NCBI GenBank assembly: GCA_040878345.1
Contig: JBBDML010000019.1
Location: 21,373 to 85,372, forward strand
DNA from: Acidimicrobiia bacterium
GTDB taxonomy: Bacteria > Actinomycetota > Acidimicrobiia > Spongiisociales > ZC4RG35
Length of the DNA stretch: 64,000 nucleotides
Direction: 5' to 3'
Both the position numbers and the translations under genes were made by a program. The notes beneath the pieces were generated by a model. That model ran no database searches. It worked only from the letters and a program-made list of their open reading frames with translations, and had not been told where the DNA came from. This document shows positions 12,159 through 58,451 of the stretch, one piece after another (positions within the stretch are counted from its first letter, which is position 1; every line of letters starts with the position of its first letter).

Positions 12159-12989
12159 ATGGGGGTCTTCCTAGGGGGGCTCAGCTCGCTCTTCTACGGC
12201 GTCGCCGACTTCTTGGGCGGGGAGGCGAGCAAGAAGGCCCCGGCACCTGCGGTGGTCCTCGGCGCCGGAATGGTCTCCTTCCCCTTGATCTCTATTGCCG
12301 CTCTCGCAATCGGCGGTCAGTCCCGACCCGGCGATTGGGTTCTTGGCGCCCTGGCCGGGTTATTCGGGGCGCTAGGCCTCACCACACTGTTCGCCGGTCT
12401 GGCTCGGGGTCACGCCGCTGCGGTGGCCCCGGCCTCGGCGGCTTTCGGTGGGGTGGTTCCCGTCGCTGTGGCGGTGATGTTGGGGGAGCGCCCTTCGGCG
12501 TTGGCCTGGGCCGGTGTGGCTCTGGCGGTGCCTTCGATCATCATGTGTTCCTGGGTGGCCGACCGGGGTGATCTGCCCCATGGCGGTCTCGGGTACGGGT
12601 TGATTGCTGGGCTGGGGTTCGGTGGGTTCACCATCATCATCAGCCGCACCGCCCCAGCGTCCAACCTGCTCCCCCTGATCCCGGCAAGGGCCGCCACCAT
12701 GGCCGCGGTTGTCGTTATGGCACTGTTCGGCTTGTGGCGGATCGAAGGGATGAGGACGTTGCCGAGGGGTCTGGTGGCTGGCAACGGAGTGCTCGACGTG
12801 TCCGCCAACATCGCCCTGTTGCTCGCACTCCGGGCCGGGTCACTGGCCCTGGTCGCGGTGGCGGCGTCGGTGTTCCCTGCGGTCACGGTGACCCTCGCCC
12901 GCCTGGTCAACCACGAGCATCTCAGAGGGAGACAGATTCTGGGGTTGGTGTTGACTCTGCTGGCCCTGGCCCTCATCGCGCTCGGCTGA
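12159..12989 (+). CDS. EamA/DMT-superfamily membrane transporter
   Basis: About 9-10 TM helices. 'FYGVADFLGG' N-terminus. The ATG immediately follows the HIT gene stop. Its 3' 580 nt are overlapped antisense by the HNH ORF. Confidence 0.75.
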   Translation: MGVFLGGLSSLFYGVADFLGGEASKKAPAPAVVLGAGMVSFPLISIAALAIGGQSRPGDWVLGALAGLFGALGLTTLFAGLARGHAAAVAPASAAFGGVVPVAVAVMLGERPSALAWAGVALAVPSIIMCSWVADRGDLPHGGLGYGLIAGLGFGGFTIIISRTAPASNLLPLIPARAATMAAVVVMALFGLWRIEGMRTLPRGLVAGNGVLDVSANIALLLALRAGSLALVAVAASVFPAVTVTLARLVNHEHLRGRQILGLVLTLLALALIALG

Positions 12990-14191
12990 GACGCCTGGCC
13001 GGGTGGGGCCCGGGTCGAGTTGACTGCGCTTGGGATGGCCGACCTGGCCCCTGACGTGGTTGTCTCGGGGGGATGGCCCGGCGGTCGTGCCCTTTCCGCC
13101 GCCTCACGCCGGTGGATGAGGGTGTGGTGGAACCGGCAGAGGAGGGCGCAATTCTCGAGATCGGTCGCCCCGCCATCGGCCCAATGCTGACGGTGATGAA
13201 CGTCGCACCAGCGGGCGGGTCGCTCGCATCCGCGGTGGGTGCAGTGACGGTCCCTGGCGATGATGGCTCTGCGTAGGGCGGAGGGTATGACTCTGGTCTT
13301 GCGTCCGATGTCGATGATCTCGGAGCCCGGGCCGAGCACGATGTGGCTGATGGTGGCGTCGCAGGCGGTCTGGCGAACGATGTCGACCGTCAGTACTTCC
13401 CCGGTCTCGGTCTCGTGGCGACCACCTGCGATTCCATGGAGGGCTGGGATGTCGCAGATCAGGTTGATGTGTGGTTTCTCCCCACCTACGACCGGAGTGT
13501 CGGCATGGTCGAGGTAGTGACGGGCCAGATCTTCGAGAGCATCGTGGCGGCGCTGGGTGGCGCTCCGATGGTCTCCCGGTGATGGTGGGGGCATGTGTGC
13601 TCCGAGGGCGGTGCGGAGGGTCTCGTAGGCGGTGGGGGTGAGCCACCCGTCGACACGCTCCATCCCGCCAATGGTTTGAGACATCGAGATGCCCCGGAAG
13701 TCCTCACTACGGTCGGGGATCTCCTCCGGTCCGGTGACGCTCTGGGACCAATAGTGGAGGGCCCGACGGGTGTCTCCCGGGGTCAAGGGAGCGACAATCT
13801 CGACCAAATGCCTCTCGGCGTCTGAGAACTCTCTCGGGGCGCTGTCGGAGGCCTCGAAGAGCCGGTGCGCTTGATCGGTGGAGACCTGGCCTCCAGTCCA
13901 CGCCTGATACACGTACCGGCATCGGAGGGCAGCGTGAGCCACACCCACCAGTCGCCGGGCCCGTCCTGAGGCGATGCGGCACCGGTGGATCAGAAAGGCA
14001 GTGACAGACGGATAACCGTGGATCCCCGGGCCACCGGCCGTCTGATACCTGTCGAGGCGTCGGGCACGCTCGGCCTCGACCAGACCAGTCACTACTTCCA
14101 GCTCCACCAGATCTTCGGCCAGGTCATCGACATGGACCTCGTCGAGATCCTGGGTCGCCCACTCCTCCAGGGCAGACCTCAGACCACTCAT
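12410..14191 (-). CDS. DUF222 / HNH endonuclease (mycobacterial 13E12-repeat-like); functional 3' end uncertain
   Basis: ATG at 14191 with GGAGAGAG SD. 'DLVELEVVTGLVEAERARRL' (DUF222) and the HNH core 'CTHRGCERPARWCDVHHRQHWADGGATDLENCALLCRFHHTLIH'. The first in-frame stop is only at 12410. Confidence 0.75.
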   Translation of the reverse strand: MSGLRSALEEWATQDLDEVHVDDLAEDLVELEVVTGLVEAERARRLDRYQTAGGPGIHGYPSVTAFLIHRCRIASGRARRLVGVAHAALRCRYVYQAWTGGQVSTDQAHRLFEASDSAPREFSDAERHLVEIVAPLTPGDTRRALHYWSQSVTGPEEIPDRSEDFRGISMSQTIGGMERVDGWLTPTAYETLRTALGAHMPPPSPGDHRSATQRRHDALEDLARHYLDHADTPVVGGEKPHINLICDIPALHGIAGGRHETETGEVLTVDIVRQTACDATISHIVLGPGSEIIDIGRKTRVIPSALRRAIIARDRHCTHRGCERPARWCDVHHRQHWADGGATDLENCALLCRFHHTLIHRREAAERARPPGHPPETTTSGARSAIPSAVNSTRAPPGQASQPSAMRARASRVNTNPRICLPLRCSWLTRRARVTVTAGNTDAATATRASDPARSASNRAMLADTSSTPLPATRPLGNVLIPSIRHKPNSAITTTAAMVAALAGIRGSRLDAGAVRLMMMVNPPNPSPAINPYPRPPWGRSPRSATQEHMMIEGTARATPAQANAEGRSPNITATATGTTPPKAAEAGATAAA

Positions 14192-14201
14192 GCTCTCTCC
14201 C

Positions 14202-14215
14202 CGAACATATGTTCG
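14202..14215. promoter_or_regulatory. Candidate LexA (SOS) box CGAACATATGTTCG
   Basis: Perfect palindrome with a GAAC-N4-GTTC core, 10 nt upstream of the HNH gene ATG and abutting its SD. Confidence 0.5.
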
Positions 14216-14413
14216 TACAACTATCAGACCCCAGGGACAGAAACAAGAGGGTCGTTCTGGGAGCTTCAGCCGCTGATTGCGCCCGATCGGTGGAAGCCGT
14301 CTGTCGACACACAAGTCAGCGAACTCGAACAGCTGAAGCCATCCACGCTTCCGGTGGGGGAAACAACGGATCCTCTCGGTGTGAGGGGTTCGAGCGCGGG
14401 GGCCAGCGCCCCG

Positions 14414-15535
14414 TCAATCGGATTGCAGCCGGACGGGCTGGACCTCCTGCTCTTCTAGGATCTGACGGAGACGGTCGGCGTTCTCACGGATCCCTTTGGA
14501 CAAGCTCCGTCTCATCAGAGGCCAGAGCAGTCGCTGCTTTCCCCGGAGGCGCTGGAGGCGAATACGCAGCTCGGTGGCTTCCTCCCCGAGCGGCCGGAAC
14601 TCGAAGGTCTGGATCCAGGGCCCAACCATCGGAAGGACGATCCGATGTGTGTAGTAATGGAAGGGGTGCCAGTCGAGGATCTCTTCGGTGATGGCACCGC
14701 GGCCGTGAACGCAATGATTGGTGGTGCCAGGGCCGCGGCGACCGCTCGGGTTGGTCTGGTCGATGTGTGTGAAGTCGGTCTGCCACAGCAGACGCTTCCG
14801 CGGGGAGGTGGAAAAGTCCCACACCACGTTCACCGGAGCCTGGAACTCGGCGGCGAATTCGAATTGTGCCTCGGTAGGGAGGACGAACACTCGCCTCCGC
14901 TCCTGTACGCGGCTCCAGGCCTCCTCCAGGTCTTCGACGTAGCTGCCTACCTCGCCCACGTCGTCATAGCTCTCTCGATGTTCACGCATTCCCAGGATGA
15001 GGGGATCTAGGCCGAGAGCAGTTACACAGGAGTCGGTGAACAGCGCGTAGCCAAGATATCCCAGGCACTCCTTCACGCTGTTCTTGAGAAGGCGGTGGGC
15101 AACGATCACATCGCTCCCAGTCAGCTCCTCGGTCCCGGCCACCACGCTGCGGACGAAACGGCCGTTGTGAGCCACGAACTTGAGGTTGAGGTTGGGAATA
15201 AGCCGGCAGGCGTTGCAGTCGCAAGTCGTTGCCTGCCGGATGTCACGCAAACGTGACCGGAAAGCGAAATACGTTTCGTCGATAGTGTCGAGGAGCGTGG
15301 ACGCCTCGACCTCAGACTCGAGGGCGTAGGCGAAAGTGGCGTCGCCCTCCAGCTTGCTGATCCGCAGAGCTGGTCGCAGACCGCCGACCACGGTCTCAGT
15401 GAGGTCGGCCAGGACGTCCTGGGCGTGCTCGAGCTCGGTGTCGCGAAGATATTGGGTGTAGCCAGAGATGTCGGCGAGCACGAGGCAACCGCTCTCGGCT
15501 GCCGGGATCATCCAATCATGCGATGCGGTTTGCAT
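14414..15535 (-). CDS. DUF2652 (nucleotidyl-cyclase-like) domain fused to a C-terminal SRPBCC domain
   Basis: ATG 15535 with GGGAGAG SD. 'GCLVLADISGYTQYL...KLEGDATFAY' resembles DUF2652 / class III cyclase-like cores. The C-terminal half is START/SRPBCC-like. Confidence 0.6.
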   Translation of the reverse strand: MQTASHDWMIPAAESGCLVLADISGYTQYLRDTELEHAQDVLADLTETVVGGLRPALRISKLEGDATFAYALESEVEASTLLDTIDETYFAFRSRLRDIRQATTCDCNACRLIPNLNLKFVAHNGRFVRSVVAGTEELTGSDVIVAHRLLKNSVKECLGYLGYALFTDSCVTALGLDPLILGMREHRESYDDVGEVGSYVEDLEEAWSRVQERRRVFVLPTEAQFEFAAEFQAPVNVVWDFSTSPRKRLLWQTDFTHIDQTNPSGRRGPGTTNHCVHGRGAITEEILDWHPFHYYTHRIVLPMVGPWIQTFEFRPLGEEATELRIRLQRLRGKQRLLWPLMRRSLSKGIRENADRLRQILEEQEVQPVRLQSD

Positions 15536-15660
15536 GGCTCTCCCGGTGGGCTCGAGCGAATTGTATGGAGTCGGCGCGGTGGGCAGCGAGATCGCGCTGC
15601 CCTTGTCCACATGCATTGAGCTGGCGGTGTCAGCGACAACCCATTCTCTGCGCCATAGTC

Positions 15661-16704
15661 ATGAAGACGCTGACCAAAGAGCGAGCAGCTGTCACTGAAT
15701 ACGCCATCGATCGGGGCGGCCCAACTGCGCTCTTGAACCCCCGAACCGTGTCAAGGTATGGTTGCCCAGCGGGGATCGAGGAGGTGACGGTGGCGGCGTC
15801 TGGCCGCAGCGCCGGCCGACTTGTGCTGGCCGCCTTTTTCGTGGAGGCGGTCCTCGCCGGCGGCAATTCGGTAGCGATCAGGTTCAGCAACCGCGAACTG
15901 GCTCCACTTTGGGGAGCGGGTCTGCGGTTCGCGCTCGCGGCGGTGTTGATCGTGGTCGTGATGGCAGCGTTGAAACTGGCCCTACCTCGTGGAAAGGCCC
16001 TTACGGGTGCGGTGCTCTTTGGTCTATTCCAATTCGCAGGCGCGTTTGGCCTTTACTACTACGCACTCGTTGAGATACATGCCGGACTCGGCCAGACCCT
16101 GCTGGCGCTGGTACCACTCGCAACGCTGATCTTGGCAGTGGCTCAGCGTCAAGAGCGACTTCGCGGAGCGGCTGTTATAGGAACCCTCATTGGGCTTGTG
16201 GGGGTTGGTTTGATCTCACGCGATCCGTTGCGGGGGTCTATACCGCTGATCTCGCTGCTGGCGGTGCTGGGGAGCGTGTTGTGCTTCGCCCAAGCGTTGG
16301 TGCTAGTCCGCCGTTTCCCACCTATCCATCCGGTTGTGCTGACCGCTGTGGGAATGCTGGTGGGCGCGGTGGTGCTGGTAGGCGCGTCTGTCGTGGTAGG
16401 CGAGCCGCTCGCGCTTCCACAGCGCATTGAGACATGGGTGGCGCTCGGCTACGTGGCCGCTTTCGGCTCGGTTGTGGTGTTCCTGATCCACGTGTACGTG
16501 GTTCAGCTCTGGAGCGCGTCTCGTACCGCCTACGTGATGGTGCTCATTCCTTTTGTCACCGTTGTCCTCTCTGCCTGGCTAGATCACGAACCGGTAACCA
16601 ATGGCCTGGTGCTCGGAGGTCTATTGGTGATAGCCGGGGTTTACGTCGGCGCGTTACGGCAGACGCGAGTTTCCTTGACCCGTGCCGGCACAGGCGCGGG
16701 CTAG
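15661..16704 (+). CDS. EamA/DMT-family transporter
   Basis: 10 TM-like segments in two EamA repeats. An alternative start is GTG 15790, preceded by GGAGG. Uses rare ATA/TTA codons. Confidence 0.8.
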   Translation: MKTLTKERAAVTEYAIDRGGPTALLNPRTVSRYGCPAGIEEVTVAASGRSAGRLVLAAFFVEAVLAGGNSVAIRFSNRELAPLWGAGLRFALAAVLIVVVMAALKLALPRGKALTGAVLFGLFQFAGAFGLYYYALVEIHAGLGQTLLALVPLATLILAVAQRQERLRGAAVIGTLIGLVGVGLISRDPLRGSIPLISLLAVLGSVLCFAQALVLVRRFPPIHPVVLTAVGMLVGAVVLVGASVVVGEPLALPQRIETWVALGYVAAFGSVVVFLIHVYVVQLWSASRTAYVMVLIPFVTVVLSAWLDHEPVTNGLVLGGLLVIAGVYVGALRQTRVSLTRAGTGAG

Positions 16705-16868
16705 TCCCTCGAAGAACGTTCACGCACTCTCGCCCGCCGGGCAATACCCTGACTCGAGGACAAGAAACCCGAGGGATGCGGCGCTGTGCAGCGGATCTGC
16801 ACTTACCGCTCCGCCTGTCTTCGGCATGAAGGCGCTGTTCGACGCGACGGCTAGGGGCTCCGTACTTG

Positions 16869-17303
16869 TCAGGTCTCCAGCGTACGCTTGAGATTCTCGA
16901 TGAACTCACCGTTTCGGCGGCGCACCATCATCTTCATCATCGGACTCATCAACGTCATCAGACCACTCGTTTCGATCTGAATGTGACGTGTGACCTGGGT
17001 GCCGCCGCCCGCCTCCTCGAAGATGTGAGTCAGTCTCGGCTTCATGTTGCCCATGTCGGACTGAGACACGATCCGACGGCCAGGCTCGAACTCAACTATC
17101 TCCACCGTCCCCTCGGATGGCGACATGGGCTGAGGTCTGAACTGAAGCTTGTACCTCGTACCCTGGCCAACCTCACCGTCGGTCAGGCGTTCCGCCTCCA
17201 GGATATCGGTGTGCCACTGCGGTTCGTTTTCCATCTCGGCCACGAATGCGAACACCTCACCACGAGGGCGGTTCACCCTTGTAGAAACGGTCACGTCGAT
17301 CAT
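16869..17303 (-). CDS. SRPBCC (polyketide cyclase/START-like) family protein
   Basis: 'MIDVTVSTRVNRPRGEVFAFVAEMENEPQWH' is a typical SRPBCC N-terminus. ATG 17303 has a strong GGAAGGAG SD. The track ORF starts at 17336. Confidence 0.7.
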   Translation of the reverse strand: MIDVTVSTRVNRPRGEVFAFVAEMENEPQWHTDILEAERLTDGEVGQGTRYKLQFRPQPMSPSEGTVEIVEFEPGRRIVSQSDMGNMKPRLTHIFEEAGGGTQVTRHIQIETSGLMTLMSPMMKMMVRRRNGEFIENLKRTLET

Positions 17304-17575
17304 CCCTTTGGCTCCTTCCCACCTGTCGCCCTCCATCTGTTGACAGAGAGATCGGGTAAGGGGCTACGAACCTACTCTGTTCAGCTAGTGGCCAGTCGCC
17401 CAAATAGCTACGCGGTTGCAGCAGCCGAAGCGGTAACTATCGCGCGTCCGTCGCGCGTACGGTGCAATTCACAGTCATCGGCACCGTCCGTAAAACGCCC
17501 TGACCAGCCATTTCAGTCCACGGTCGTCCGCGGAGTCCGCCCTGGCAGCGTTCACACCGCAGAGGTCGGGGAGGC

Positions 17576-18025
17576 TCACGCCGCGTTCCCGCTGCCTCCC
17601 ACCACCAGCCAGGTGCCGAATACCACCAGGGCGATGCCGGCCAATCTTCTCGGGTCGATTGTGTGGGCCTGAGAGAACAACCCGAAATGGTCGATCAGGG
17701 CCCCGAGTATCAGGGTGGAGCCTGTGAAAAGGGTGATGCCACCACCCAAACCCAGGCGGGCGATGACGATCCCCAGTGAGGCCACCACGACCAGTCCCAT
17801 CAAACCGGCGGTGAAGGCCCACCAGGGGACCTCCTTCAAGTCGGACCACTTGCTCCCGCCGAATGCCAGCATGACCAGGCCGATGGCCAGCCCGCCCCCT
17901 CCATAGGTGATGAATGTCGACGCCAGGGTCCCCACCCGGTTCTGCATCACCCCGAGGAATCCCGACTGCAAAGAGCCGGCCAACCCACCGGCCACTCCGA
18001 TGAGGATCACCAAGAACAGGCTCAT
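17576..18025 (-). CDS. Small DMT-superfamily membrane protein (DUF606/YdcZ-like)
   Basis: 150 aa with 5 hydrophobic helices starting 'MSLFLVILIGVAGG'. Its ATG overlaps the upstream gene's TGA (ATGA at 18022-18025). Confidence 0.7.
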   Translation of the reverse strand: MSLFLVILIGVAGGLAGSLQSGFLGVMQNRVGTLASTFITYGGGGLAIGLVMLAFGGSKWSDLKEVPWWAFTAGLMGLVVVASLGIVIARLGLGGGITLFTGSTLILGALIDHFGLFSQAHTIDPRRLAGIALVVFGTWLVVGGSGNAA

Positions 18026-19161
18026 GGCGATCCATCCTGGTCGGCCATCGCCTCGTATTGGCGGATGGTCCCCTCCAGGTAATCGATGGCTTGGTCGTAT
18101 CCCTCGACGGCCACCTCGGTGGTGTAGGTGAGCACCCTGATCAACCAGAGACGGAAGGCCAGGCTCTCCCACGCCGGGTCGCCCAGCACAAAGCGATCGT
18201 GGAGATGGACCAGTATCTCGCCCCACCGTTCGGCATCCATGAACCCATATCGCGCCTCAAACCGGTTGGCGAGCACACCGTCGACCACCCGGGTGGGCAG
18301 CTCCTCCGCCAGGCGCACCTCCTCCGTGCTCCAGTTGGCGGTGAGCAGGCCGACGGTCCGCTCCAGGTCATAGCCCACTGTCTGCTTCAGGTCGTCGGGG
18401 ACCGGGGCCGGTGGGTCGGTTGCCAACTCGATCATCGGAGCGGGCAAACCTCTCAAGGACCTCACCGCGTCGAGGCACTCCACCACCATGGTCCGGATCT
18501 CGTCCAGGGACCCATAAAGGGCGTGGCGCTTGCCTTCGGCCACATTGTGCTCGTAGAGGGGGAGGCCCATGGTGGCGGTGGCATGAGTGATCAGAGTGTC
18601 CACTCCCCAGTCGGAGCGCTCCGCCACCAGGGGATCGGCGGCCAGTGTCGCCACCGCTTCCCGGGTGAGGAAGATCTCCCCGCCCAACGGCTGGCCGAGA
18701 CGGGGGAGCACGGAGCCGGGGAACAGGATCGCCAGCGACGGGCGCGTGACCATCCAGGTGATCATGGCGTCGGTGGATGCCCGCGGGAATCGGTGTCTGA
18801 CGATCTGATATCCGTCGTCCGCCGTCTGCTCGGCGCCGTCGATCCAGCCCTCGTCGAAGTTGGTTATGTCGGCGTCGTAGAAATGGACCCGCTCGAACCC
18901 CTGCTCGGCGGCGTGGCGGAGGGCGGTGTTAAGCCCATCACCCTTTCCGGGGCGGAATCTGCCGATCCGCTCCTGGGGGAAGACCAGGACCGGGGCCCCA
19001 CCCAAACCGGCGGCGATGCCCTCCACCGCCGCCATGGCCTCACCCTGGGTGGCGGCCACCGCCCAAACCGCATCGACCCGCCGATGGGCGGCTGCGATCT
19101 CGAGGTTGGCCCCGACCACCTCCAGGTCCTCCTCCTTGAAAGGGAAGACGATCAGGCTCAA
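18022..19161 (-). CDS. mgs: Mannosylglycerate synthase (GT78, single-step GDP-mannose:D-glycerate mannosyltransferase)
   Basis: TTG start gives 'MSLIVFPFKEED'. The motifs 'RPGKGDGLNTAL', 'FYDADITNF', 'FPRASTDAMITWM', 'QPLGGE', 'SDWGVDT' and 'EGKRHALYG' match the Rhodothermus marinus MGS as I remember it. Confidence 0.75.
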   Translation of the reverse strand: MSLIVFPFKEEDLEVVGANLEIAAAHRRVDAVWAVAATQGEAMAAVEGIAAGLGGAPVLVFPQERIGRFRPGKGDGLNTALRHAAEQGFERVHFYDADITNFDEGWIDGAEQTADDGYQIVRHRFPRASTDAMITWMVTRPSLAILFPGSVLPRLGQPLGGEIFLTREAVATLAADPLVAERSDWGVDTLITHATATMGLPLYEHNVAEGKRHALYGSLDEIRTMVVECLDAVRSLRGLPAPMIELATDPPAPVPDDLKQTVGYDLERTVGLLTANWSTEEVRLAEELPTRVVDGVLANRFEARYGFMDAERWGEILVHLHDRFVLGDPAWESLAFRLWLIRVLTYTTEVAVEGYDQAIDYLEGTIRQYEAMADQDGSP

Positions 19162-19175
19162 GGGCGGGAGGGTTC

Positions 19176-19197
19176 TGTCATGGCCGGTGTCTACTCT
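19176..19197 (+). promoter_or_regulatory. Possible RecA-independent (PafBC-type, RecA-NDp) damage promoter: TGTCAtgg-8nt-TACTCT
   Basis: Partial match to tTGTCRgtg-8nt-TAnnnT at the exact spacing, 21 nt upstream of the herA GTG. A GGAGA SD follows. Confidence 0.25.
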
Positions 19198-19217
19198 CGA
19201 CTCGGGATGGAGACGCT

Positions 19218-20888
19218 GTGATCGAAAAGATGGTCGGGCGGGTCCTGGGGACCAAGGATGCCACCCCCCTCGAGTTCTGGGTGGGTGTGGCCGAAGGTGA
19301 GTTCCTTCAGCTCGACGACGTGGTGGCTCTCGAGCGACTACTGCCGACCGGCGAATTGGTGATGATGTACGGCACCGTGGGCCAAGTGGTGGCTCGTCAT
19401 GAGGGGGCCCGGTTCGACTCCGACGTGTTCCTGATCGAAGAGGGTGTCCTACCTGCCGAGGTGACCGAGACCGCACAGGTCACCGCCACCCGGTTCGAGC
19501 CAGAGGTGTTCGTCCCACCTCGCCCCGGCCAACCGGTGCGGATTGCCCTCGATGATGAGCGCGACCGCGCCCTGTTCTTCGACCGTATGGAGCAGCGGCT
19601 CCCAGTGGGGCTCTCCCGCAATGGTGAGCCGTTCTGGATCAATCTCGAGTTCCTCAATGGGGAGCGGGGGGCACATGTCAATATCTCGGGGATCTCCGGA
19701 GTCGCCACCAAGACCACGTATGCCACCTTCCTGCTCCACTCGTTGTACACCTCCGGGGTCCTCGGGGATGCCGCGGTCAACACCAAGAGCCTGATCTTCA
19801 ACGTCAAGGGCGAGGACCTGTTGCATCTCGATCGGGCCAACAACCGCCTCGGTGGGGAGGAGCGGGCCCGCTACGCCAAGCTCGGCCTCCCTGCCACCCC
19901 GTTCGAGTCGGTGGCGATCTTCGCCCCGCCCCGGCCCGGAGACCCCAACGCCGGCGCCGACGTCAACACCCGTCACGACGTGACATCCTTCTTCTGGACC
20001 CTGGAACGGTTCTGTCACGACGACCTGCTCCCGTTCCTCTTCGCCGACGCCGAGGACGACCGCGCCCAATACACCACGGTGGTCTACAACGTGATGGCCC
20101 ATCTCCGTCAGGCACAGGCCACCGAGACCGGCGCAATGGTGATCGACGGCGTCACCCTGCGGACCTTCCGCCAGCTCGCCGATCTCATCGTGGAGCGAGT
20201 TCAGGACGAGAGCCTCCGCTACCAGTGGGCGGGGCCGGCGATCGGGACCGGGACGGTCAACGCCTTTGTCCGCCGGCTCCTGGGTGCGGTCCGTCACGTG
20301 GAACGTCTCATCAGGGCGGATGTAGCCGACCCGGCCCGGCACGCCATAGCCCTCGAGAGCCAGGTGACGGTGGTCGATCTCCACAACCTCAACGACAGGG
20401 CCAAGCGTTTCGTGGTGGGGGTCACCCTGAAGCGGGCATTCGATGACAAAGAGATGGCGGGCCAGACCCCTGAGCTGTTGTTTGTGGTCCTCGACGAGCT
20501 CAACAAGTACGCCCCGCGTGAAGGGACCAGTCCCATCAAGGAGATCCTCCTCGACATCGCCGAGCGAGGCCGGTCCCTCGGGGTGATACTGATCGGGGCC
20601 CAGCAGACCGCCTCGGAGGTGGAGCGCCGCATCATCGCCAACTCCTCGATCCGCGTGGTGGGCCGGCTCGACTCGGCCGAGGCGGCACGTGAGGAATACG
20701 GGTTCCTCCCCGGGCCCCACCGACAGCGGGCCACCATCATCAAGCCGGGGACCATGCTCCTCAGCCAGCCCGAGATCCCGGTCCCACTCGTCCTCGAGTT
20801 CCCCTTTCCCGCCTGGGCCACCAGACCCTCGGAGGCGGTCGTCCCCAGCGGCAGTGGGGGTCCCGAAGACCCCTTCGAAGGCCTGTAG
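19218..20888 (+). CDS. herA: HerA-type hexameric DNA translocase/helicase ATPase (DUF87)
   Basis: N-terminal barrel-like 'GRVLGTKDATPLEFWVGV', Walker B 'LLFVVLDELNKYAP', 'AERGRSLGVILIGAQQ'. Atypical P-loop 'GISGVATKTT'. Confidence 0.75.
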   Translation: MIEKMVGRVLGTKDATPLEFWVGVAEGEFLQLDDVVALERLLPTGELVMMYGTVGQVVARHEGARFDSDVFLIEEGVLPAEVTETAQVTATRFEPEVFVPPRPGQPVRIALDDERDRALFFDRMEQRLPVGLSRNGEPFWINLEFLNGERGAHVNISGISGVATKTTYATFLLHSLYTSGVLGDAAVNTKSLIFNVKGEDLLHLDRANNRLGGEERARYAKLGLPATPFESVAIFAPPRPGDPNAGADVNTRHDVTSFFWTLERFCHDDLLPFLFADAEDDRAQYTTVVYNVMAHLRQAQATETGAMVIDGVTLRTFRQLADLIVERVQDESLRYQWAGPAIGTGTVNAFVRRLLGAVRHVERLIRADVADPARHAIALESQVTVVDLHNLNDRAKRFVVGVTLKRAFDDKEMAGQTPELLFVVLDELNKYAPREGTSPIKEILLDIAERGRSLGVILIGAQQTASEVERRIIANSSIRVVGRLDSAEAAREEYGFLPGPHRQRATIIKPGTMLLSQPEIPVPLVLEFPFPAWATRPSEAVVPSGSGGPEDPFEGL

Positions 20889-20945
20889 GGGAGCTTCCCC
20901 GACTCTCCCCGAATCTGTCACACCCCGGTCGTACGATCCTGGGGA

Positions 20946-22070
20946 ATGAAGATCCTCCATACCTCCGACTGGCATGTGGGTCGTCGGATGCGGGGACGCG
21001 ACCGAGCCGAGGAGCACCGTGCCGTCCTCTCCGAGGTGTTGTCGGCAGCCGTCTCGAATCAGGTCGACCTGACGGTGGTGGCCGGCGACCTCTTCGACAC
21101 CGGCTCGCCCACCGCCGCCTCCGAGGAGATCGTCTGGACCGCCCTGCTCCAGCTGGCCGAGGTGGCGCCGGTGCTGGTGGTGGGGGGTAACCACGACAAC
21201 CACGCCCGCATCGACGCAGTGGCGCCGCTGCTTCGAATGGGGAGGATCACCGCCCTCGGCGCCCCTCGATCACCTGAAGAGGGAGGTGTGGTCCATCTCG
21301 AGGAGATCGGGGCGCGGGTGGCGTTGCTCCCCTTCGTCTCTCAGAGGGGGATTGTCCGCGCCGAGGACATCATGGCCTCCGACCCCGATCAGAACGCCGG
21401 GGCATACCAGGACCGGTTGCGACGGGTCGTCCACCGGCTCAGTGCCGACATGACCCCAGACACGGTGAACCTCCTGGTGACTCATCTCACCGTCTTCGGG
21501 GCGGAGCTGGGTGGCGGGGAGCGTGAAGCACACGTCTTTGGCTATGCGGTGCCGGCGGCGGTCTTCCCCGGGCATCTCTCCTATGTCGCCCTGGGGCACT
21601 TCCATCGCCAGCAGAAAATCCCTCATCCCGGGGCGGTTTGGTACTCGGGGTCGCCCTTGCAGCTCGACTTCGGGGAGGTCGACGACACCAAGGGGGTGTT
21701 GGTGGTCGAGGCGACACCGGGAAAGCCGGCCCGGGTCACCACGGTCCCGGTGACAAGCGGGCGCAAGCTGGTGACGGTCCGGGGGACCCTCGAGGAAGTC
21801 CTTGCCCGTGCCGACGACCTCGACGATGCCTTTGTGCGTGTGGTCCTGGTGGAGAAGGCCCGGGTGGGTCTGGCCGATGAGGTCAGGATGGCGATACCCG
21901 ACGCCGTCGAGGTGGTCCTCGACTCACCCTTGCAGCCCAGGTCCGATCCCGAGCCCCGCGCCCAGCTCGAGCCAGGCGAGGCCTTTCATCGTTATCTGTC
22001 CGAGAAGGGAGCCGATGACCCCAGGGTCGAGGCTCTCTTCGCCGAGCTGATGGACGAGGTCGCGGTGTGA
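20946..22070 (+). CDS. sbcD: Mre11/SbcD-family nuclease (calcineurin-like phosphoesterase)
   Basis: 'MKILHTSDWHVG', 'VVAGDLFD', 'VVGGNHDN', 'GHFH'. Confidence 0.9.
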   Translation: MKILHTSDWHVGRRMRGRDRAEEHRAVLSEVLSAAVSNQVDLTVVAGDLFDTGSPTAASEEIVWTALLQLAEVAPVLVVGGNHDNHARIDAVAPLLRMGRITALGAPRSPEEGGVVHLEEIGARVALLPFVSQRGIVRAEDIMASDPDQNAGAYQDRLRRVVHRLSADMTPDTVNLLVTHLTVFGAELGGGEREAHVFGYAVPAAVFPGHLSYVALGHFHRQQKIPHPGAVWYSGSPLQLDFGEVDDTKGVLVVEATPGKPARVTTVPVTSGRKLVTVRGTLEEVLARADDLDDAFVRVVLVEKARVGLADEVRMAIPDAVEVVLDSPLQPRSDPEPRAQLEPGEAFHRYLSEKGADDPRVEALFAELMDEVAV

Positions 22071-24439
22071 GGCCGGTGAGGATCGAGGTCGAGGGCTTCT
22101 CCGCCTATCGATCGGCGGTCAGTGTCGACCTCAGCAGACTCCTCGACTCCGACCTCCCCTTCTTCTCGCTGAGCGGGGCGACCGGGGCGGGGAAGTCGAG
22201 CCTGATCGACGCCATGATCTTCGCCCTCTATGGAAGGATCCCCCGACTTGGTGGCACCGCGGTGGCCCCGGTCATCTCGGCCGGCACCGACCGGGCCCGG
22301 GTCAGATTCGACTTCGACGTCGACGGGGTGATCCACACCGCGGTCCGTTTGGCGCAGCGAACGCCCAGCGGTGGCGCAACCGTCAAAGAGGCGCGGCTGG
22401 AGCGGGGCGACGAGGTCCTGGCCGACGGTGCCGACAACGTCACCACTGCGGTGGAGGAGCTGCTCCGGCTGGGATTCGACGACTTCACCCGGACCGTTGT
22501 CCTGCCTCAGGGGGATTTCGCCAGGTTCCTCAATGCCACCAAGGCGGAGCGGCAAGCCCTCCTCCGAGGCATCCTCGGGCTCGAGGTATATGGGAGGGTC
22601 CGGGAGCTGGCCGGCGGGAGACAGGCAGTGGCCTCCGACCGGGCCTCCGGCGCCCACACCCGGCTGGACGCTCTCGAGGTGCCTGCAGAGGCCGACATCG
22701 AGGGGGCCTCGGCCCGTCTCTCCTCTCTGGAAGCCATGGTGGGCCAGATCAGGGATCGAGAGCAGGCTCTCGCCGTCCTGGCCCTCGAGGTCGGTGCCGC
22801 CACCGCCGACGTGACCCGACTCACCGGAGCCAGGGAGAGGTTGGAGGTGCTGGCACCACCCGAGGACCTGGACGAGCTCGGCGAGATGGTGACACTGGCC
22901 CGCTCGACGTTCTCCGACGCCGAGGAGGCTCACGCGGCCGCGGTGGCGGGCGGTCGGGAGATCGAGAAGAGACTGGAGGGGATCCCGGAGCCTGAGACCA
23001 TTGCCCTCGGCAAGCACGATTACCAATCGCTCGACCAGGTCGAGACCCAGCTCGAGGCGTTGGCTGACGACCGGCCGAGGCAAGCGCTGGAGGAGGCCGA
23101 GACCCGGTTGGCCGAGTCGCGCCAGGCTCACCTCGAGGCGGTTGCTCGCCGAAACTCTCTCCACATCTCCCACACCGCACATGCCATCGGGGCGACCCTG
23201 GTGGTGGGCGAGAACTGCCCTGTGTGTCAGCGCCGCGTCGAGGTCTTGCCGGTCGCGGAGACTCCACCGGAGCTGACCCGGGTCGAGAAGGAGTTGGAGA
23301 CCTCGGAAGCCCGGGTGGAGGCCGATCTTGGCGCCGTCGGTCTGGCTCGAGCAGCGATCACCGAGCACGAGACCACCAGGGCCAACCTGGCCGCCACCCG
23401 GGACACCCTGGTCGCCCGATTGTCGGGTGCCCCGAACCGCGAGGAGTTGGCTCGCTTGGAGACCCTGGCCACAGAGTTGAAGGATCAGCTCGCCGGCTCG
23501 CGTCGCACGGTGTCTTCGGCCGAGGAGACCCTGGGTCTTGCCCGTAAGCAGCTCGATGAAATGGCGGCGCGGCAACATGCCATGGGCCGGCTCCTCACCA
23601 CGGCCCAGCTCAAGGTGGCCGACCTGAGCCCCCCGGTGTCGGAGAGCGACGACGTGGTGGTGCAGTGGAAGGACCTGATGACCTGGCGGGCCGAGACTCT
23701 GGACCGTGTGGTCGAGGAGCATGCCGCCCTTCTCGCGCGCTCGGCGGAGGCACTTTCGGCCCACGACTCCGCCCGGGAGGAGCTGGTGGCCGACCTCGCC
23801 ACCGCCGGGCTCGACGCCATCGAGCCCTATTCGGCCACTCTGGCCTCCGAGGTCGAGCGGGCGCGCCATGTAGTCGCCCACCAGCAGAAGACACTTGTTG
23901 ATGCCAACGCGCTAAGCGCCGAGATCGACTCCGAGACCGCCAATGCCGACGTGGCCGCCGCCCTCGCCGGGCATCTCAAGGCAAACGGGTTCGAGCAGTG
24001 GCTGATGGCCGGCGCGCTGGAGACACTGGTGGTCGGGGCCAATGACCTCCTGGCCCAGCTCTCCGAGGGCGGCTACTCCCTCCACTCCCAGGAGGGGAGC
24101 TTCACCATCGTCGATCATCGCAACGCCGACGAGAAGAGATCGGTGTCCACCCTCTCCGGCGGGGAGACCTTCCTGGTTTCGCTGGCCTTGGCCCTCTCAC
24201 TGGCGGAGACCCTGGCTTCTGCCGGTGGCGCCCGGCTCGACGCCATCATCCTCGACGAGGGATTCGGCACCCTCGACGACGAATCGCTCGACACGGTGGC
24301 GTCGGTGTTGGAGGAGCTTGCCGGGAAGGGCCTGATGGTGGGGGTCATCACCCATGTCAAAGAGCTTGCCTCCCGTGCCGCGGTGCGTTTCGAGGTGACA
24401 CGGGAGGCCCGTGGCTCGACGGTCAGCGATATGCCATGA
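22067..24439 (+). CDS. sbcC: Rad50/SbcC-family SMC-like ATPase with zinc hook
   Basis: GTGA overlap with sbcD. Walker A 'GATGAGKSS', long coiled coil, central 'CPVCQR' hook, signature 'LSGGETF', Walker B 'AIILDEGFGTLD'. Confidence 0.9.
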   Translation: MRPVRIEVEGFSAYRSAVSVDLSRLLDSDLPFFSLSGATGAGKSSLIDAMIFALYGRIPRLGGTAVAPVISAGTDRARVRFDFDVDGVIHTAVRLAQRTPSGGATVKEARLERGDEVLADGADNVTTAVEELLRLGFDDFTRTVVLPQGDFARFLNATKAERQALLRGILGLEVYGRVRELAGGRQAVASDRASGAHTRLDALEVPAEADIEGASARLSSLEAMVGQIRDREQALAVLALEVGAATADVTRLTGARERLEVLAPPEDLDELGEMVTLARSTFSDAEEAHAAAVAGGREIEKRLEGIPEPETIALGKHDYQSLDQVETQLEALADDRPRQALEEAETRLAESRQAHLEAVARRNSLHISHTAHAIGATLVVGENCPVCQRRVEVLPVAETPPELTRVEKELETSEARVEADLGAVGLARAAITEHETTRANLAATRDTLVARLSGAPNREELARLETLATELKDQLAGSRRTVSSAEETLGLARKQLDEMAARQHAMGRLLTTAQLKVADLSPPVSESDDVVVQWKDLMTWRAETLDRVVEEHAALLARSAEALSAHDSAREELVADLATAGLDAIEPYSATLASEVERARHVVAHQQKTLVDANALSAEIDSETANADVAAALAGHLKANGFEQWLMAGALETLVVGANDLLAQLSEGGYSLHSQEGSFTIVDHRNADEKRSVSTLSGGETFLVSLALALSLAETLASAGGARLDAIILDEGFGTLDDESLDTVASVLEELAGKGLMVGVITHVKELASRAAVRFEVTREARGSTVSDMP

Positions 24440-25368
24440 GATACACCGTGGAGAACTGGGACTCCGATTACGGGGCCCCCACCGACCCCGAGCTGACCGA
24501 CGCCACCCAGAACGTCGATGTCGGGGTCGAGATGGCGGCCGATCAATGGCGCCCCATCCTGCCGGAATCCCCGGCCGTCGAGGAAGTGCTGTTCGTCGAC
24601 GGGGTCCGTCGGGTCGACGCCAGCCTCTGGATCGACCAACCCCCCGACTTCCCCGGCTTCGCCCTGGCGGCGACCTACGCCGCCGGAGCGGTGAGATGCA
24701 ACTCCCGTGCCGGCCTGGAGGTGGCAGAGGTGGGGCGGGGCCTCTTCACCTCAGCTCTTGCCACCGATATCGAGACCACCGTCGGCACATATGGGGTGAA
24801 GGCCACCAAGGGCAGCACCTCAGAAGAGCTCTGGCTGGGGATACAGCAAAGGATGGGGGACCTCGAGGCCCGGGTGGTTCACCAGGCGGGGGGAGCCGCC
24901 CTGGTGGTGGTCGACGGCCCATTGTCACATGCCAGAGACATCGACAACGCCATCGGGTACATCAAGACCCAGAAGGTGCAGTACCTGCCGCTGGAGCTGC
25001 GACATGTCCTCACCTCGCTCCCTGCCGGCTACCGCACACCGCTGTTCCTCACCACCACCTCATGGAGCCGCTTCTCCTGGTATCTCCGTCTCGCCAACCA
25101 CGACGGGCCCGCCGGTGGGCTGGTGAGATGCGAGATCGACGCCGACAAGCCGGCGGCGGAGGCGGCGCGGATCGCCACCGCGGTGAGCGCCACCCTGCCC
25201 CGTTTCGCCTCGGCCCGCCACAAGGACCCGCGCGCTCCCCAGAACCTCTACCCGATCGGTGGCCTGGAGCGTGACCTGAGACACCGTCTCGGCGACAAGG
25301 ACCTGGCGGTCAGGGCCTTGAGGAGAGCAGCCGCGATGGCGGGCAAGGCCTCAGATCTCGCGTCGTGA
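24436..25368 (+). CDS. nurA: NurA-like 5'-3' nuclease
   Basis: ATGA overlap with rad50. Acidic motifs 'LFVDGVRR', 'LVVVDGPL', then 'GYIKT', 'FSWYLRL', 'LYPIGGLERDL' in NurA-like order. Operon context with herA. Confidence 0.55.
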   Translation: MRYTVENWDSDYGAPTDPELTDATQNVDVGVEMAADQWRPILPESPAVEEVLFVDGVRRVDASLWIDQPPDFPGFALAATYAAGAVRCNSRAGLEVAEVGRGLFTSALATDIETTVGTYGVKATKGSTSEELWLGIQQRMGDLEARVVHQAGGAALVVVDGPLSHARDIDNAIGYIKTQKVQYLPLELRHVLTSLPAGYRTPLFLTTTSWSRFSWYLRLANHDGPAGGLVRCEIDADKPAAEAARIATAVSATLPRFASARHKDPRAPQNLYPIGGLERDLRHRLGDKDLAVRALRRAAAMAGKASDLAS

Positions 25369-33765: not shown

Positions 33766-34806
33766 GTGTCCGTGATACGACCGGTGATCCTCTCGGGCGG
33801 CTCGGGGACCCGTCTTTGGCCACTGTCCACCCACGCTCGCCCCAAGCAGTTCGCCGACCTGATCCCTGGGGCGCCGTCGCTTTTCCAGGCGACGATCAGC
33901 CGGCTCGCCGGCATGGCTGGCGCCGCCCCGCCGATGGTCGTCACCGGCGCCGACCACTTGGGGCTGGTTCGGGCCGACGCCGCCACCTGCGGGGTCGAGC
34001 CCATGGTGGTCATTGTCGAGCCAATGGGTCGGAACACAGCACCTGCAGTCGCCGCCGCCGCCCTCCTCGCCGACTCTGAGGACGTCCTCGTCATCCTCCC
34101 CGCCGATCATCTGATAGGAGACACCGGAGCGTTCCAAGACGGGGTGAGGACCGCAGTGGGCCACGCCCTGTCGGGATCGATAGTTGCTTTCGGAATCACC
34201 CCGACCCGGGCGGAGACAGGTTATGGCTACATCGAGACCGGGGACAGCGTCGGAGACGGATGGCACGTCGCCCGGTTCAAGGAGAAACCGGCGGTCGAGG
34301 AGGCCGGCGAGTTGATGTCCGATGGCCGCCATCTCTGGAACTCGGGCATGTTCGTCGCTATGGCCGGAGCGCTGATCGATGAGATGGCAGCCACCTGCCC
34401 GGCCATCCTCGAGGGGGTCCGAGGAGCGGTTCCCACCTCGATCGAGGGGCTGGCCGTGCTCGGCCCTTCATTCGCGACGGTCGAGGCCATCTCGTTCGAC
34501 CATGCCGTGATGGAGAGGACAGGCCGTGCGGTCGTCATCCCACTCGATGTCGGCTGGGACGACATCGGTTCGTACCAGGCGCTGATGGGGCTGAGCGCCA
34601 AGGATGGTGAGGGCAATGCGGTCTCGGGGCCGGTGATCCTCGAGAACGTGACCGGATCGTTCATCCACGCCACCACCCGGACCGTGGCCGTGGCCGGGAT
34701 GAGCGATGTGATCGTGGTCGAGGCAGCGGACGGCGTGCTGGTGGTGCCCTTGAGTGAAGCGCAACGGGTGAAGGACCTGGCGGAGCGAGACCAGAAACAG
34801 GGATGA
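33766..34806 (+). CDS. manC: Mannose-1-phosphate guanylyltransferase (GDP-mannose pyrophosphorylase)
   Basis: GTG start. 'PVILSGGSGTRLWPLS', 'LPADHLI', 'GYGYIE', 'FKEKP', 'WNSGMF'. Confidence 0.85.
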   Translation: MSVIRPVILSGGSGTRLWPLSTHARPKQFADLIPGAPSLFQATISRLAGMAGAAPPMVVTGADHLGLVRADAATCGVEPMVVIVEPMGRNTAPAVAAAALLADSEDVLVILPADHLIGDTGAFQDGVRTAVGHALSGSIVAFGITPTRAETGYGYIETGDSVGDGWHVARFKEKPAVEEAGELMSDGRHLWNSGMFVAMAGALIDEMAATCPAILEGVRGAVPTSIEGLAVLGPSFATVEAISFDHAVMERTGRAVVIPLDVGWDDIGSYQALMGLSAKDGEGNAVSGPVILENVTGSFIHATTRTVAVAGMSDVIVVEAADGVLVVPLSEAQRVKDLAERDQKQG

Positions 34807-57497: not shown

Positions 57498-58451
57498 ATG
57501 GCCGAGATCCTGGTCACCCGCGCTCTCCCATCCGACATCCTGGGGCCGCTGCTATCCCGAGGCGGGGTGGAGGTCTGGGAAGGTGATGGCCCTATCCGGC
57601 GCGAGGTGTTGCTCGCTTCGGTGGGTAACTCACTGGGTGTCCTCAGCATGCTCACAGACTCGATCGACGCCGAACTGCTCGAGGCCGCGCCCCGGCTAAT
57701 GGTGGTGTCGCAGATGGCCGCCGGTGTCGACAACATCGACCTCGATGCCTGCGCCCGTCGCGGGGTGAGGGTGGGCCACACACCAGGGGTGCTCACCGAG
57801 ACGGTGGCCGATACCGCCTTTGCCCTGATGGCCTCGATCGTGCGCCGCCTCCCCGAGGGCAAGCGCCTGGTCGAGGAGGGGCGCTGGGGCCCTTGGTCGC
57901 CCTTCGAAGGTCTGGGCGGCGACCTCCACGGATCGGTCTTGGGCATCGTGGGCATGGGTGGTGTCGGCAGGGCGGTGGCGCGTCGGGCGTCCGGCTTCGA
58001 GATGAGGGTGATCTACACCACGCCTCGGGCGGTGGAGGGCTCGCCGGGCCAAGCGGTCACACTCGACGAGCTCCTGGCCACCGCCGACGTAGTGATGTTG
58101 TGCGCCCCTCTCACCGAGGAGACACGGGCGATGATCGGGGTGGCGCAGCTCGAGGCGATGAGACCCATCTCCTACCTGGTCAACGTGGCCCGTGGGCAGC
58201 TGGTGGACACTGACGCCCTGGTGGAGGCCCTCGGCTCGGGTTCCATCGCCGGGGCGGCACTCGATGTCATCGACCCCGAGCCGCTGCCCCCCGACCACCC
58301 CATCCTGAGCCTGCCCAACTGCCTGGTGACCCCCCACATCGCCAGCGCCTCGGTCTCCACCAGGAGGGCAATGGCGAAGCTGGCGGTGGACAACCTGATC
58401 GCCGGGCTCGATGGCACCGAGATGCCGGCGGAACGTCGTCCCGGTGGGTAG
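57498..58451 (+). CDS. D-isomer-specific 2-hydroxyacid dehydrogenase (glyoxylate/hydroxypyruvate reductase-like)
   Basis: 'GIVGMGGVGRAVARR', 'NVARGQLVD', 'LDVIDPEPLP', 'TPHIAS'. Confidence 0.85.
   Translation: MAEILVTRALPSDILGPLLSRGGVEVWEGDGPIRREVLLASVGNSLGVLSMLTDSIDAELLEAAPRLMVVSQMAAGVDNIDLDACARRGVRVGHTPGVLTETVADTAFALMASIVRRLPEGKRLVEEGRWGPWSPFEGLGGDLHGSVLGIVGMGGVGRAVARRASGFEMRVIYTTPRAVEGSPGQAVTLDELLATADVVMLCAPLTEETRAMIGVAQLEAMRPISYLVNVARGQLVDTDALVEALGSGSIAGAALDVIDPEPLPPDHPILSLPNCLVTPHIASASVSTRRAMAKLAVDNLIAGLDGTEMPAERRPGG

What the first reader, a model, noticed from the sequence alone, without database searches (positions are those of the whole stretch)
17576..19161. GT78 mannosylglycerate synthase translationally coupled to a DUF606 membrane protein
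The 380-aa product (TTG start, 'MSLIVFPFKEED...') shares long motif blocks with the single-step mannosylglycerate synthase of Rhodothermus marinus, as I recall it: RPGKGDG-NTAL, FYDADIT-F, FPRASTDAMITWM, QPLGGE, SDWG-DT. To my knowledge the single-step GT78 route is rare in bacteria; most mannosylglycerate producers use the two-step MpgS/MpgP route. Its TGA overlaps the ATG of a 150-aa five-helix DUF606/DMT protein (ATGA at 18022-18025). This suggests a dedicated synthase plus efflux/uptake pair for the compatible solute, which I am not aware of being described. Elsewhere the window also encodes GDP-mannose pyrophosphorylase (33766-34806) and a hydroxypyruvate/glyoxylate reductase-like enzyme (57498-58451). 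These could supply both substrates, although they are not linked to mgs.
Basis: partly seen in the sequence, partly recalled or inferred. Interest (0 to 1): 0.62.

Follow-up and report, generated by a model that had tools for sequence, protein, structure and literature searches.

The report
Mannosylglycerate synthase with small transporter gene
An uncultured Acidimicrobiia bacterium carries an intact one-step enzyme for the stress-protectant mannosylglycerate. Its gene overlaps a small half-size membrane transporter gene, but the pairing is an inherited, often-lost feature of one bacterial family, not proof of a dedicated transporter.

Summary
Window 18022-19161 (minus strand, TTG start) encodes a 379-aa protein. 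It matches Rhodothermus marinus mannosylglycerate synthase over its full length (PDB 2BO4, E 2e-101), has both Pfam MGS domains, and keeps every catalytic and substrate-binding residue. Its TGA overlaps the ATG of a 149-aa YdcZ/DUF606 half-transporter (17576-18025).

The GT78 assignment is therefore supported. The family is small: 27 clusters at 50% identity in 1.84 billion proteins, and only 3 of 401 genomes sampled in the phylum carry it. It is nevertheless the norm in this Acidimicrobiia family (28 of 35 genomes), and databases already name it.

The claim of a dedicated synthase plus transporter is only weakly supported.
- YdcZ lies directly downstream in about a quarter of 80 relatives and within 4 kb in 43 of 66.
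- Unrelated neighbours are conserved more often (herA in 71 of 75).
- YdcZ was lost at least 7 times while mgs stayed.
- Its closest relatives also sit beside MerA-like and ArsM-like genes, or beside herA with no mgs.

In other lineages mgs is joined to other partners: an ABC importer, a sodium:solute symporter, or a glycerate-kinase-like gene. This is a new member of a known kind, of modest interest.

The parts
18022..19161 (-). mgs: GT78 mannosylglycerate synthase, 379 aa, TTG start
   Evidence: Pfam MGS_GT and MGS_C. PDB 2BO4 at 2e-101 over the full length. Start is homologous in relatives. Functional residues are conserved.
17576..18025 (-). ydcZ-type DUF606 five-helix DMT half-transporter, 149 aa, the only copy in the genome
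   Evidence: PF04657 at 4e-22. One match in the genome. Hydropathy and K+R count. The AlphaFold model's weak best fold matches are EmrE and Gdx.
18022..18025 (-). ATGA stop/start overlap joining mgs and ydcZ
   Evidence: Sequence read directly. The same 4-nt overlap occurs in 11 of 22 relatives where ydcZ is directly adjacent and in L168 and L170.
19162..19217 (.). 56-bp divergent spacer between mgs and herA. It holds TGTC (19176-19179), 12 nt, then TACTCT (19192-19197), oriented towards herA.
   Evidence: A motif of this form is found in 70 of 73 relatives' spacers.
33766..34806 (+). ManC-type mannose-1-phosphate guanylyltransferase, a likely GDP-mannose supplier, unlinked to mgs
   Evidence: PF00483 and PF22640; TIGR01479 at 3.7e-97.
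57498..58451 (+). D-2-hydroxyacid dehydrogenase of the glyoxylate/hydroxypyruvate reductase type, a possible D-glycerate source, unlinked to mgs
   Evidence: PF02826 and PF00389. The best NCBIfam models are glyoxylate reductase and GhrB, both below their cut-offs.

Best explanation
mgs and ydcZ form a two-gene operon read from the minus strand. MGS is a functional retaining GT-A glycosyltransferase. It transfers mannose from GDP-mannose to the 2-hydroxyl of free D-glycerate and so makes alpha-mannosylglycerate in one step. The inferred mechanism rests on residue equivalences with the R. marinus enzyme. D98 and H213 hold the metal. Q63 reads the guanine. The K73-D96-D188 network holds the sugar. 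T135, the I134 backbone and R127 hold the glycerate carboxylate. This is the genome's only recognisable route to the solute. YdcZ is translated by coupling at the ATGA overlap. As a singleton DUF606 protein with a weak positive-charge bias, it probably inserts in both orientations and forms an antiparallel homodimer, giving a ten-helix DMT-type secondary transporter. The pair is an ancestral but dispensable arrangement of one Acidimicrobiia family. YdcZ is an accessory neighbour whose substrate is unknown. It is not an obligatory or demonstrably mannosylglycerate-specific partner. Shown here: gene identities, the overlap, residue conservation and the distribution of the pairing. Inferred: enzyme activity, co-transcription, dimer topology and the transporter's role.
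For: Enzyme: the full-length match to R. marinus MGS and both Pfam domains. All residues listed for the R. marinus active site in PMC2581804 are kept in the window protein, and nearly all are invariant in 117 homologues. The genome has a single mgs copy, no GT55 MpgS and no true GpgS. ManC and a GhrB-like dehydrogenase are present. Operon: the ATGA overlap. The same direct adjacency is seen in 22 of 80 related loci, 11 of them with the 4-nt overlap, and in 3 of 5 further sampled YdcZ homologues. Dispensable: 13 of 28 mgs-positive genomes in the family have no YdcZ at all. On the MGS tree, starred branches force at least 7 changes to the no-YdcZ state. Not specific: herA, HIT and EamA neighbours are conserved more often than YdcZ (71/75, 56/66 and 51/66 against 43/66). 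Copies beside MerA-like and ArsM-like genes nest inside the window's YdcZ clade. A 71%-identical YdcZ sits beside herA with no mgs. Topology: one copy in the genome; K+R count is 4 on one side and 2 on the other; the DUF606 literature describes singleton, paired and fused forms.
Against: Of the 53 YdcZ copies in the clade built from my sample, 50 lie within 4 kb of mgs. The overlap has persisted across several genera. Both facts also fit a real functional link. In other phyla mgs sits beside other transporters, which hints that transport of some related solute matters. Two positions near the guanine pocket differ from the R. marinus enzyme (Y86/F87 become H83/A84), so the nucleotide preference is untested.
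Confidence: 0.6

Rival explanations
1. Dedicated pair. YdcZ moves mannosylglycerate (a release valve or recapture system) or imports the acceptor D-glycerate. The operon would then be a synthase-plus-transporter module for the compatible solute.
For: The genes are on the same strand with a 4-nt overlap, and this is conserved in many relatives. On the tree the pairing looks ancestral to the family-type MGS clade. Restricted to the window-type YdcZ clade, it occurs in 15 of 28 mgs-positive and 0 of 7 mgs-negative family genomes (Fisher p 0.012, not corrected for phylogeny). mgs is joined to other transporters elsewhere: an ABC importer in two Acetothermia genomes, with a 4-nt overlap in L141, and a sodium:solute symporter in a Gemmatimonadota genome. 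It is joined to a glycerate-kinase-like gene in a sister family. No mannosylglycerate exporter is known (PMC8490865).
Against: Counting any YdcZ, there is no presence/absence association (odds ratio 0.46, p 0.67). YdcZ was lost at least 7 times while mgs was retained. Linkage is lower than for unrelated syntenic genes. Copies 61-71% identical to the window's lie beside MerA-like and ArsM-like genes, or lack an adjacent mgs. In one large genus an opposite-strand MFS gene separates the two genes, so they cannot be co-transcribed there.
Confidence: 0.27
2. The enzyme's physiological product is not mannosylglycerate. It could be glucosylglycerate, mannosyl-lactate or a primer for a larger glycoconjugate, because GT78 enzymes are promiscuous.
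For: Two positions lining the guanine pocket and R218 of the R. marinus enzyme are replaced in this family (H83/A84 and A214). From my own knowledge, the R. marinus and Selaginella enzymes accept other donors and acceptors in vitro.
Against: The residues that contact mannose, the metal and the glycerate carboxylate are nearly all invariant in 117 homologues. Q63, the guanine-reading glutamine, is kept. A GDP-mannose-forming enzyme is encoded.
Confidence: 0.1
3. The overlap is incidental tight packing in a small, dense genome, and ydcZ is expressed on its own or not at all.
For: About half of the directly adjacent relatives have small gaps of 3-30 nt instead of an overlap. No promoter or terminator could be scored.
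Against: There is no room for a promoter between the genes. An AGGATGGA purine run lies 9 nt before the ATG. The ydcZ frame is intact, and 30 alignment columns are invariant across 21 homologues.
Confidence: 0.03

Closest known systems
Rhodothermus marinus mannosylglycerate synthase (CAZy GT78; PDB 2BO4, 2BO6-8, 2Y4J-M)
   Same: Same length and two-domain build, with roughly half the residues identical in the alignment. The DXD motif, the His metal ligand, the guanine-reading Gln, the Lys-Asp-Asp network and the glycerate-binding Thr and Arg are all kept.
   Different: The window protein belongs to a separate, vertically inherited Acidimicrobiia clade. Rm Y86/F87 and R218 are replaced. It is uncharacterised, and the host is an uncultured organism represented mostly by soil and sediment MAGs rather than a marine thermophile. 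R. marinus also has the two-step route (own knowledge; Borges et al. 2004, cited); this genome does not.
Escherichia coli mnaT-ydcZ
   Same: A cytoplasmic small-molecule enzyme gene whose stop overlaps by 4 nt the start of a 149-aa YdcZ half-transporter.
   Different: The upstream enzyme is an acyltransferase, not a glycosyltransferase. The two YdcZ proteins are only 32% identical over 88 residues. Neither transporter has a known substrate.
DUF606 family as analysed by Lolkema et al. 2008 (cited in PMC3962082 and PMC3111387)
   Same: A half-size DMT unit. This one is a singleton form, expected to act as a dual-topology homodimer.
   Different: Topology was not tested here, and that work proposed no substrate link.
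mgs operons found here in other lineages: ABC importer-mgs in Acetothermia/Bipolaricaulota, symporter-mgs in Gemmatimonadota, mgs-DUF4147/MOFRL in a sister Acidimicrobiia family
   Same: mgs lies on the same strand as, and often overlaps, a gene for solute transport or glycerate metabolism.
   Different: The partner families differ and the mgs genes belong to the R. marinus-type clade. Other lineages have mgs with no such partner.

Membership tests
GT78 mannosylglycerate synthase | Full-length sequence similarity to the characterised R. marinus enzyme | tested here: met
   PDB 2BO4 at E 2e-101, residues 1-373 aligned to 1-378.
GT78 mannosylglycerate synthase | Both family domains (MGS_GT and MGS_C) score above Pfam gathering cut-offs | tested here: met
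   296.9 and 89.9 bits against a cut-off of 27.
GT78 mannosylglycerate synthase | DXD motif and His that bind the metal (Rm D100, D102, H217) | tested here: met
   D96, D98 and H213 in the window protein; invariant in 117 homologues.
GT78 mannosylglycerate synthase | Acceptor carboxylate contacts (Rm I138, T139 and R131) and donor pocket (K76, D192, L163, W189, M229, Q66) | tested here: met
   R127, I134, T135, K73, D188, L159, W185, M225 and Q63 are all present.
GT78 mannosylglycerate synthase | Makes mannosylglycerate from GDP-mannose and D-glycerate | not testable with these tools
   Needs an enzyme assay.
GT81 GpgS / GT55 MpgS (two-step routes) | Scores above the family model cut-off | tested here: not met
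   The GpgS model gives 21 bits against a cut-off of 262. The genome has no PF09488 match. The best GpgS-model hit in the genome is 69 bits.
DMT_YdcZ / DUF606 | Family model scores above cut-off over its whole length | tested here: met
   79.4 bits against 24, profile positions 1-140 of 140.
DMT_YdcZ / DUF606 | About 150 aa with five membrane helices | tested here: met
   149 aa with five hydrophobic stretches. The AlphaFold model is helical, with pLDDT 78.7.
DMT_YdcZ / DUF606 | Singleton members act as dual-topology antiparallel homodimers | tested here: inconclusive
   One copy in the genome. The K+R count is 4 against 2. The fold search gave only weak EmrE and Gdx matches, E above 0.1.
Dedicated compatible-solute synthase-transporter module | The partner gene co-occurs with the synthase beyond background gene order and is retained with it | tested here: not met
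   Linkage is 43/66, against 71/75 for herA. YdcZ was lost at least 7 times. 13 of 28 mgs-positive family genomes lack YdcZ.

The most novel reading that the evidence does not exclude
The window-type YdcZ clade is the first transporter for mannosylglycerate or for its acceptor D-glycerate. The ATGA-coupled mgs-ydcZ pair would then be a minimal 'make and gate' module for an anionic compatible solute. The ABC- and symporter-linked mgs operons of other phyla would be analogous solutions.
Probability: 0.25. Interest if true: 0.6.

Novelty: new member of a known kind. Interest (0 to 1): 0.3.

Why it matters
Mannosylglycerate is a valued protein stabiliser, and its one-step synthase has been studied in very few organisms. 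This work shows that the enzyme is standard equipment in a whole family of uncultured, apparently mostly soil- and sediment-dwelling Acidimicrobiia, which lack the two-step route. That widens the ecology of this solute beyond thermophiles and algae and offers presumably mesophilic enzyme variants. No mannosylglycerate exporter is known. If YdcZ moved the solute, it would help production strains and would give the first substrate for a DUF606 protein. The evidence here does not favour that reading, so the finding is mainly a solid annotation with one testable lead.

Tried and rejected
- **Promoter and terminator scan.** The scan of 17000-19500 found no promoter and one weak terminator-like site inside another gene. 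It was uninformative for this high-GC organism.
- **Fold search.** The YdcZ model gave no significant match. The best hits were EmrE and Gdx at E 0.26-2. I use this only as weak support for a DMT-like fold.
- **Presence/absence test.** mgs against any YdcZ in the family showed no association (p 0.67). The clade-restricted test (p 0.012) ignores phylogeny, so I do not rely on it.
- **MGS as a GpgS-like enzyme.** I considered this because of the weak NCBIfam hit and rejected it (21 bits against a cut-off of 262).
- **Longer upstream ORFs.** The 484-aa and 216-aa ORFs from the ORF listing were rejected. Homologues start at MSLVVFPFK, and the Pfam YdcZ profile begins at residue 5 of the ATG-started protein.
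- **Crude gene calls.** My GC3-based ORF calls mislabelled some antisense shadows. I replaced them with tblastn maps.
- **Overlap baseline.** I did not measure how often unrelated same-strand gene pairs in this genome overlap by 4 nt.

Full report
**What is there**

On the minus strand, an ORF at 18022-19161 starts with TTG and encodes 379 residues beginning MSLIVFPFKEED. Its TGA shares three bases with the ATG of a 149-residue ORF at 17576-18025 (ATGA at 18022-18025). A purine run, AGGATGGA, lies 9 nt before that ATG. The longer ORFs that the ORF listing offers for both genes are artefacts. All 30 relatives first collected read xS(L/x)VVFPFK at the same position, about 25 of them from an ATG or GTG start. 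The Pfam YdcZ profile starts at residue 5 of the ATG-started protein.

**Identity of the enzyme**

The large protein hits Pfam MGS_GT (1.3e-88) and MGS_C (1.6e-25). It aligns over its whole length with the solved Rhodothermus marinus mannosylglycerate synthase (2BO4, E 2e-101). The GpgS model reaches only 21 bits against a cut-off of 262.

The M. tuberculosis GpgS structure paper (PMC2581804) lists the functional residues of the R. marinus enzyme:
- E11 contacts the ribose.
- Q66 reads the guanine.
- K76, D100 and D192 form a hydrogen-bond network.
- D102 and H217 bind the metal.
- L163, W189 and M229 line the sugar pocket.
- I138 and T139 bind the glycerate carboxylate.
- Y220 lies close to the nucleotide phosphates.

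Mapped through the alignment, these are E11, Q63, K73, D96, D188, D98, H213, L159, W185, M225, I134, T135 and Y216 in the window protein. All are present, as is R127, the counterpart of R. marinus R131. Nearly all are invariant in 117 homologues. Only Rm Y86/F87 and R218 vary; they are H83/A84 and A214 here.

The genome is 2.46 Mb in 39 contigs and about 98% complete. It has one mgs copy. It has no GT55 MpgS, no GpgS above the model cut-off and no GH63-type mannosylglycerate hydrolase. A ManC-type guanylyltransferase (33766-34806) and a glyoxylate/hydroxypyruvate-reductase-like dehydrogenase (57498-58451) are real but unlinked. A DUF4147/MOFRL glycerate-kinase-like gene lies on another contig.

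**How rare is it**

At 50% identity clustering, only 27 of 1.84 billion representative proteins match at E 1e-30 or better, and about a dozen of those are full length. In 401 genomes sampled across the phylum, only 3 carry mgs, all from the window's own family.

Within that family, 28 of 35 genomes carry it. Seven genomes of three sister families also do. At 90% clustering there are at least 659 clusters. Many are already labelled 'mannosylglycerate synthase' by JGI or 'mannosylglycerate synthase domain-containing protein' by NCBI. Homologues also occur in Acetothermia/Bipolaricaulota, Rhodothermaceae and Gemmatimonadota MAGs.

The MGS tree splits into two parts. One is a family-type clade of 81 sequences that includes the window. 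The other is an R. marinus-type clade that mixes phyla, sister families and one genus of the window's own family. I found no paper linking mannosylglycerate to Acidimicrobiia genes.

**The small protein**

It matches DMT_YdcZ end to end (4e-22) and is the only copy in the genome. It has five hydrophobic stretches, with 4 K+R on one side and 2 on the other. DUF606 proteins are known as singleton, paired or fused half-transporters thought to form antiparallel dimers. A singleton with a weak charge bias fits the dual-topology type.

An AlphaFold model (pLDDT 78.7) is all-helical. Its best, non-significant, fold matches are EmrE and Gdx. The protein is only 32% identical over 88 residues to E. coli YdcZ. 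That gene likewise overlaps the stop of an upstream enzyme gene, mnaT, by 4 nt.

**Is the pairing conserved**

I examined 80 related loci from species-representative genomes, all uncultured Acidimicrobiia. The position of ydcZ relative to mgs was as follows:

| Arrangement | Loci |
|---|---|
| ydcZ directly downstream of mgs | 22 (11 with the same 4-nt overlap) |
| ydcZ about 1.24 kb downstream (0.8 kb in one) | 25 |
| ydcZ 3-3.7 kb downstream | 3 |
| No ydcZ found (seven contigs too short to tell) | about 30 |

In the 1.24-kb group an opposite-strand MFS transporter gene lies between the two genes. They cannot be co-transcribed there.

The whole neighbourhood is strongly syntenic. Its order is GSDH, HIT, EamA, then ydcZ where present, then mgs, divergent from herA-sbcD-sbcC-nurA. 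Measured on loci with enough flank:
- herA is the divergent neighbour in 71 of 75.
- HIT lies within 4 kb in 56 of 66.
- EamA lies within 4 kb in 51 of 66.
- ydcZ lies within 4 kb in 43 of 66 and is directly adjacent in 18 of 73.

So ydcZ is less conserved next to mgs than genes with no plausible link to the solute.

**Gains, losses and exceptions**

On the MGS tree, ydcZ-adjacent loci include early-branching lineages, so the pair is probably ancestral to the family-type clade. The no-ydcZ state needs 12 changes, at least 7 of them forced by well-supported branches (a quick tree).

In the 35 family genomes the counts are: 15 with both genes, 13 with mgs only, 5 with ydcZ only and 2 with neither. 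That gives an odds ratio of 0.46 and p 0.67.

The five ydcZ-only genomes carry a divergent YdcZ, 32-40% identical. It occupies the same syntenic neighbourhood next to EamA, and next to herA in one case.

All mgs-linked YdcZ proteins fall in one supported clade. That clade also contains three other copies, 61-68% identical to the window's. One lies directly after a MerA-like gene in another family. I read it as MerA from its pyridine-nucleotide-disulphide-oxidoreductase domains, an N-terminal metal-binding motif and a C-terminal Cys pair. Two lie after an ArsM-like methyltransferase, read by eye with generic methyltransferase Pfam hits. Those two are in a genus whose mgs is of the R. marinus type and sits at a different site.

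Among five further close YdcZ homologues sampled, three follow mgs directly and one is MFS-separated. One, 71% identical to the window's YdcZ, abuts herA with no mgs.

**mgs partners elsewhere**

- In two Acetothermia genomes, mgs closes a sugar-type ABC importer operon (binding protein, two permeases, MalK-like ATPase), with a 4-nt overlap in one of them.
- In a Gemmatimonadota genome, a sodium:solute symporter precedes mgs on the same strand.
- In a sister Acidimicrobiia family, mgs overlaps by 4 nt a DUF4147/MOFRL gene of the glycerate-2-kinase type.
- In other genomes mgs stands between unrelated genes.

This recurring link to transport or glycerate metabolism keeps a functional reading of ydcZ alive. 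It does not single out YdcZ.

**Verdict**

The enzyme call is solid. The operon structure is real and probably ancestral in this family. The idea of a dedicated mannosylglycerate transporter is possible, at about one in four, but it is not favoured. YdcZ is dispensable for keeping mgs. It is less tightly linked than bystander genes, and its nearest relatives keep other company. This is a new member of a known kind.

Activity and transport need bench work.

Noticed in passing
window 13000-17575: A block of four genes lies between the conserved EamA gene and ydcZ: DUF222/HNH, DUF2652-SRPBCC, a second EamA transporter and SRPBCC. It is absent from this position in the relatives' gene order. Its GC is lower from about 14000 to 17500 (0.59-0.63, against 0.65-0.68 in the flanks). 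It looks like an inserted islet.
   Followed up: partly
window 19162-19217 and L051-L130 spacers: The roughly 56-bp spacer between mgs and herA carries TGTC-N12-TAC(T/G)CT oriented towards herA in 70 of 73 relatives. The spacing matches what I recall of the mycobacterial PafBC/RecA-independent damage promoter. This leaves almost no room for a separate mgs promoter, so mgs expression may be tied to that of the repair operon.
   Followed up: partly
window 19218-25368: A herA-like ATPase (no Pfam hit), sbcD, sbcC and a NurA-domain gene form a conserved operon divergent from mgs in nearly all relatives.
   Followed up: partly
L145:5827-8480 and L146:5998-8480: In a sister Acidimicrobiia family, mgs overlaps by 4 nt a DUF4147/MOFRL gene of the glycerate-2-kinase type. 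This ties the synthase to glycerate metabolism there.
   Followed up: partly
L141:853-6149 and L164:981-6146: In two Acetothermia/Bipolaricaulota genomes, mgs is the last gene of a sugar-type ABC importer operon: binding protein, two permeases and a MalK-like ATPase.
   Followed up: partly
L161:4283-6423; L163:4799-6414; L162: Close homologues of the window's YdcZ (61-68% identical) lie directly downstream of a MerA-like mercuric reductase gene and of ArsM-like methyltransferase genes. This hints at a metal or metalloid context for some members of this clade.
   Followed up: partly
L150 and L151 (genomes G174 and G238): One genus of the window's family carries an R. marinus-type mgs at a different site, convergent with herA. 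A strictosidine-synthase-like gene occupies the usual mgs slot. This suggests replacement or separate acquisition of mgs.
   Followed up: partly
window 12159-12989 and 12410-14314: The long HNH ORF runs antisense through the 3' part of the conserved EamA gene. Its low-complexity tail is probably a shadow frame and not real protein.
   Followed up: no
L076, L085, L113 (ydcZ ORFs of 293-405 codons): In a few relatives the ydcZ frame stays open far beyond the usual 144 codons. This may be read-through into the antisense of the neighbouring EamA gene, or an assembly error.
   Followed up: no
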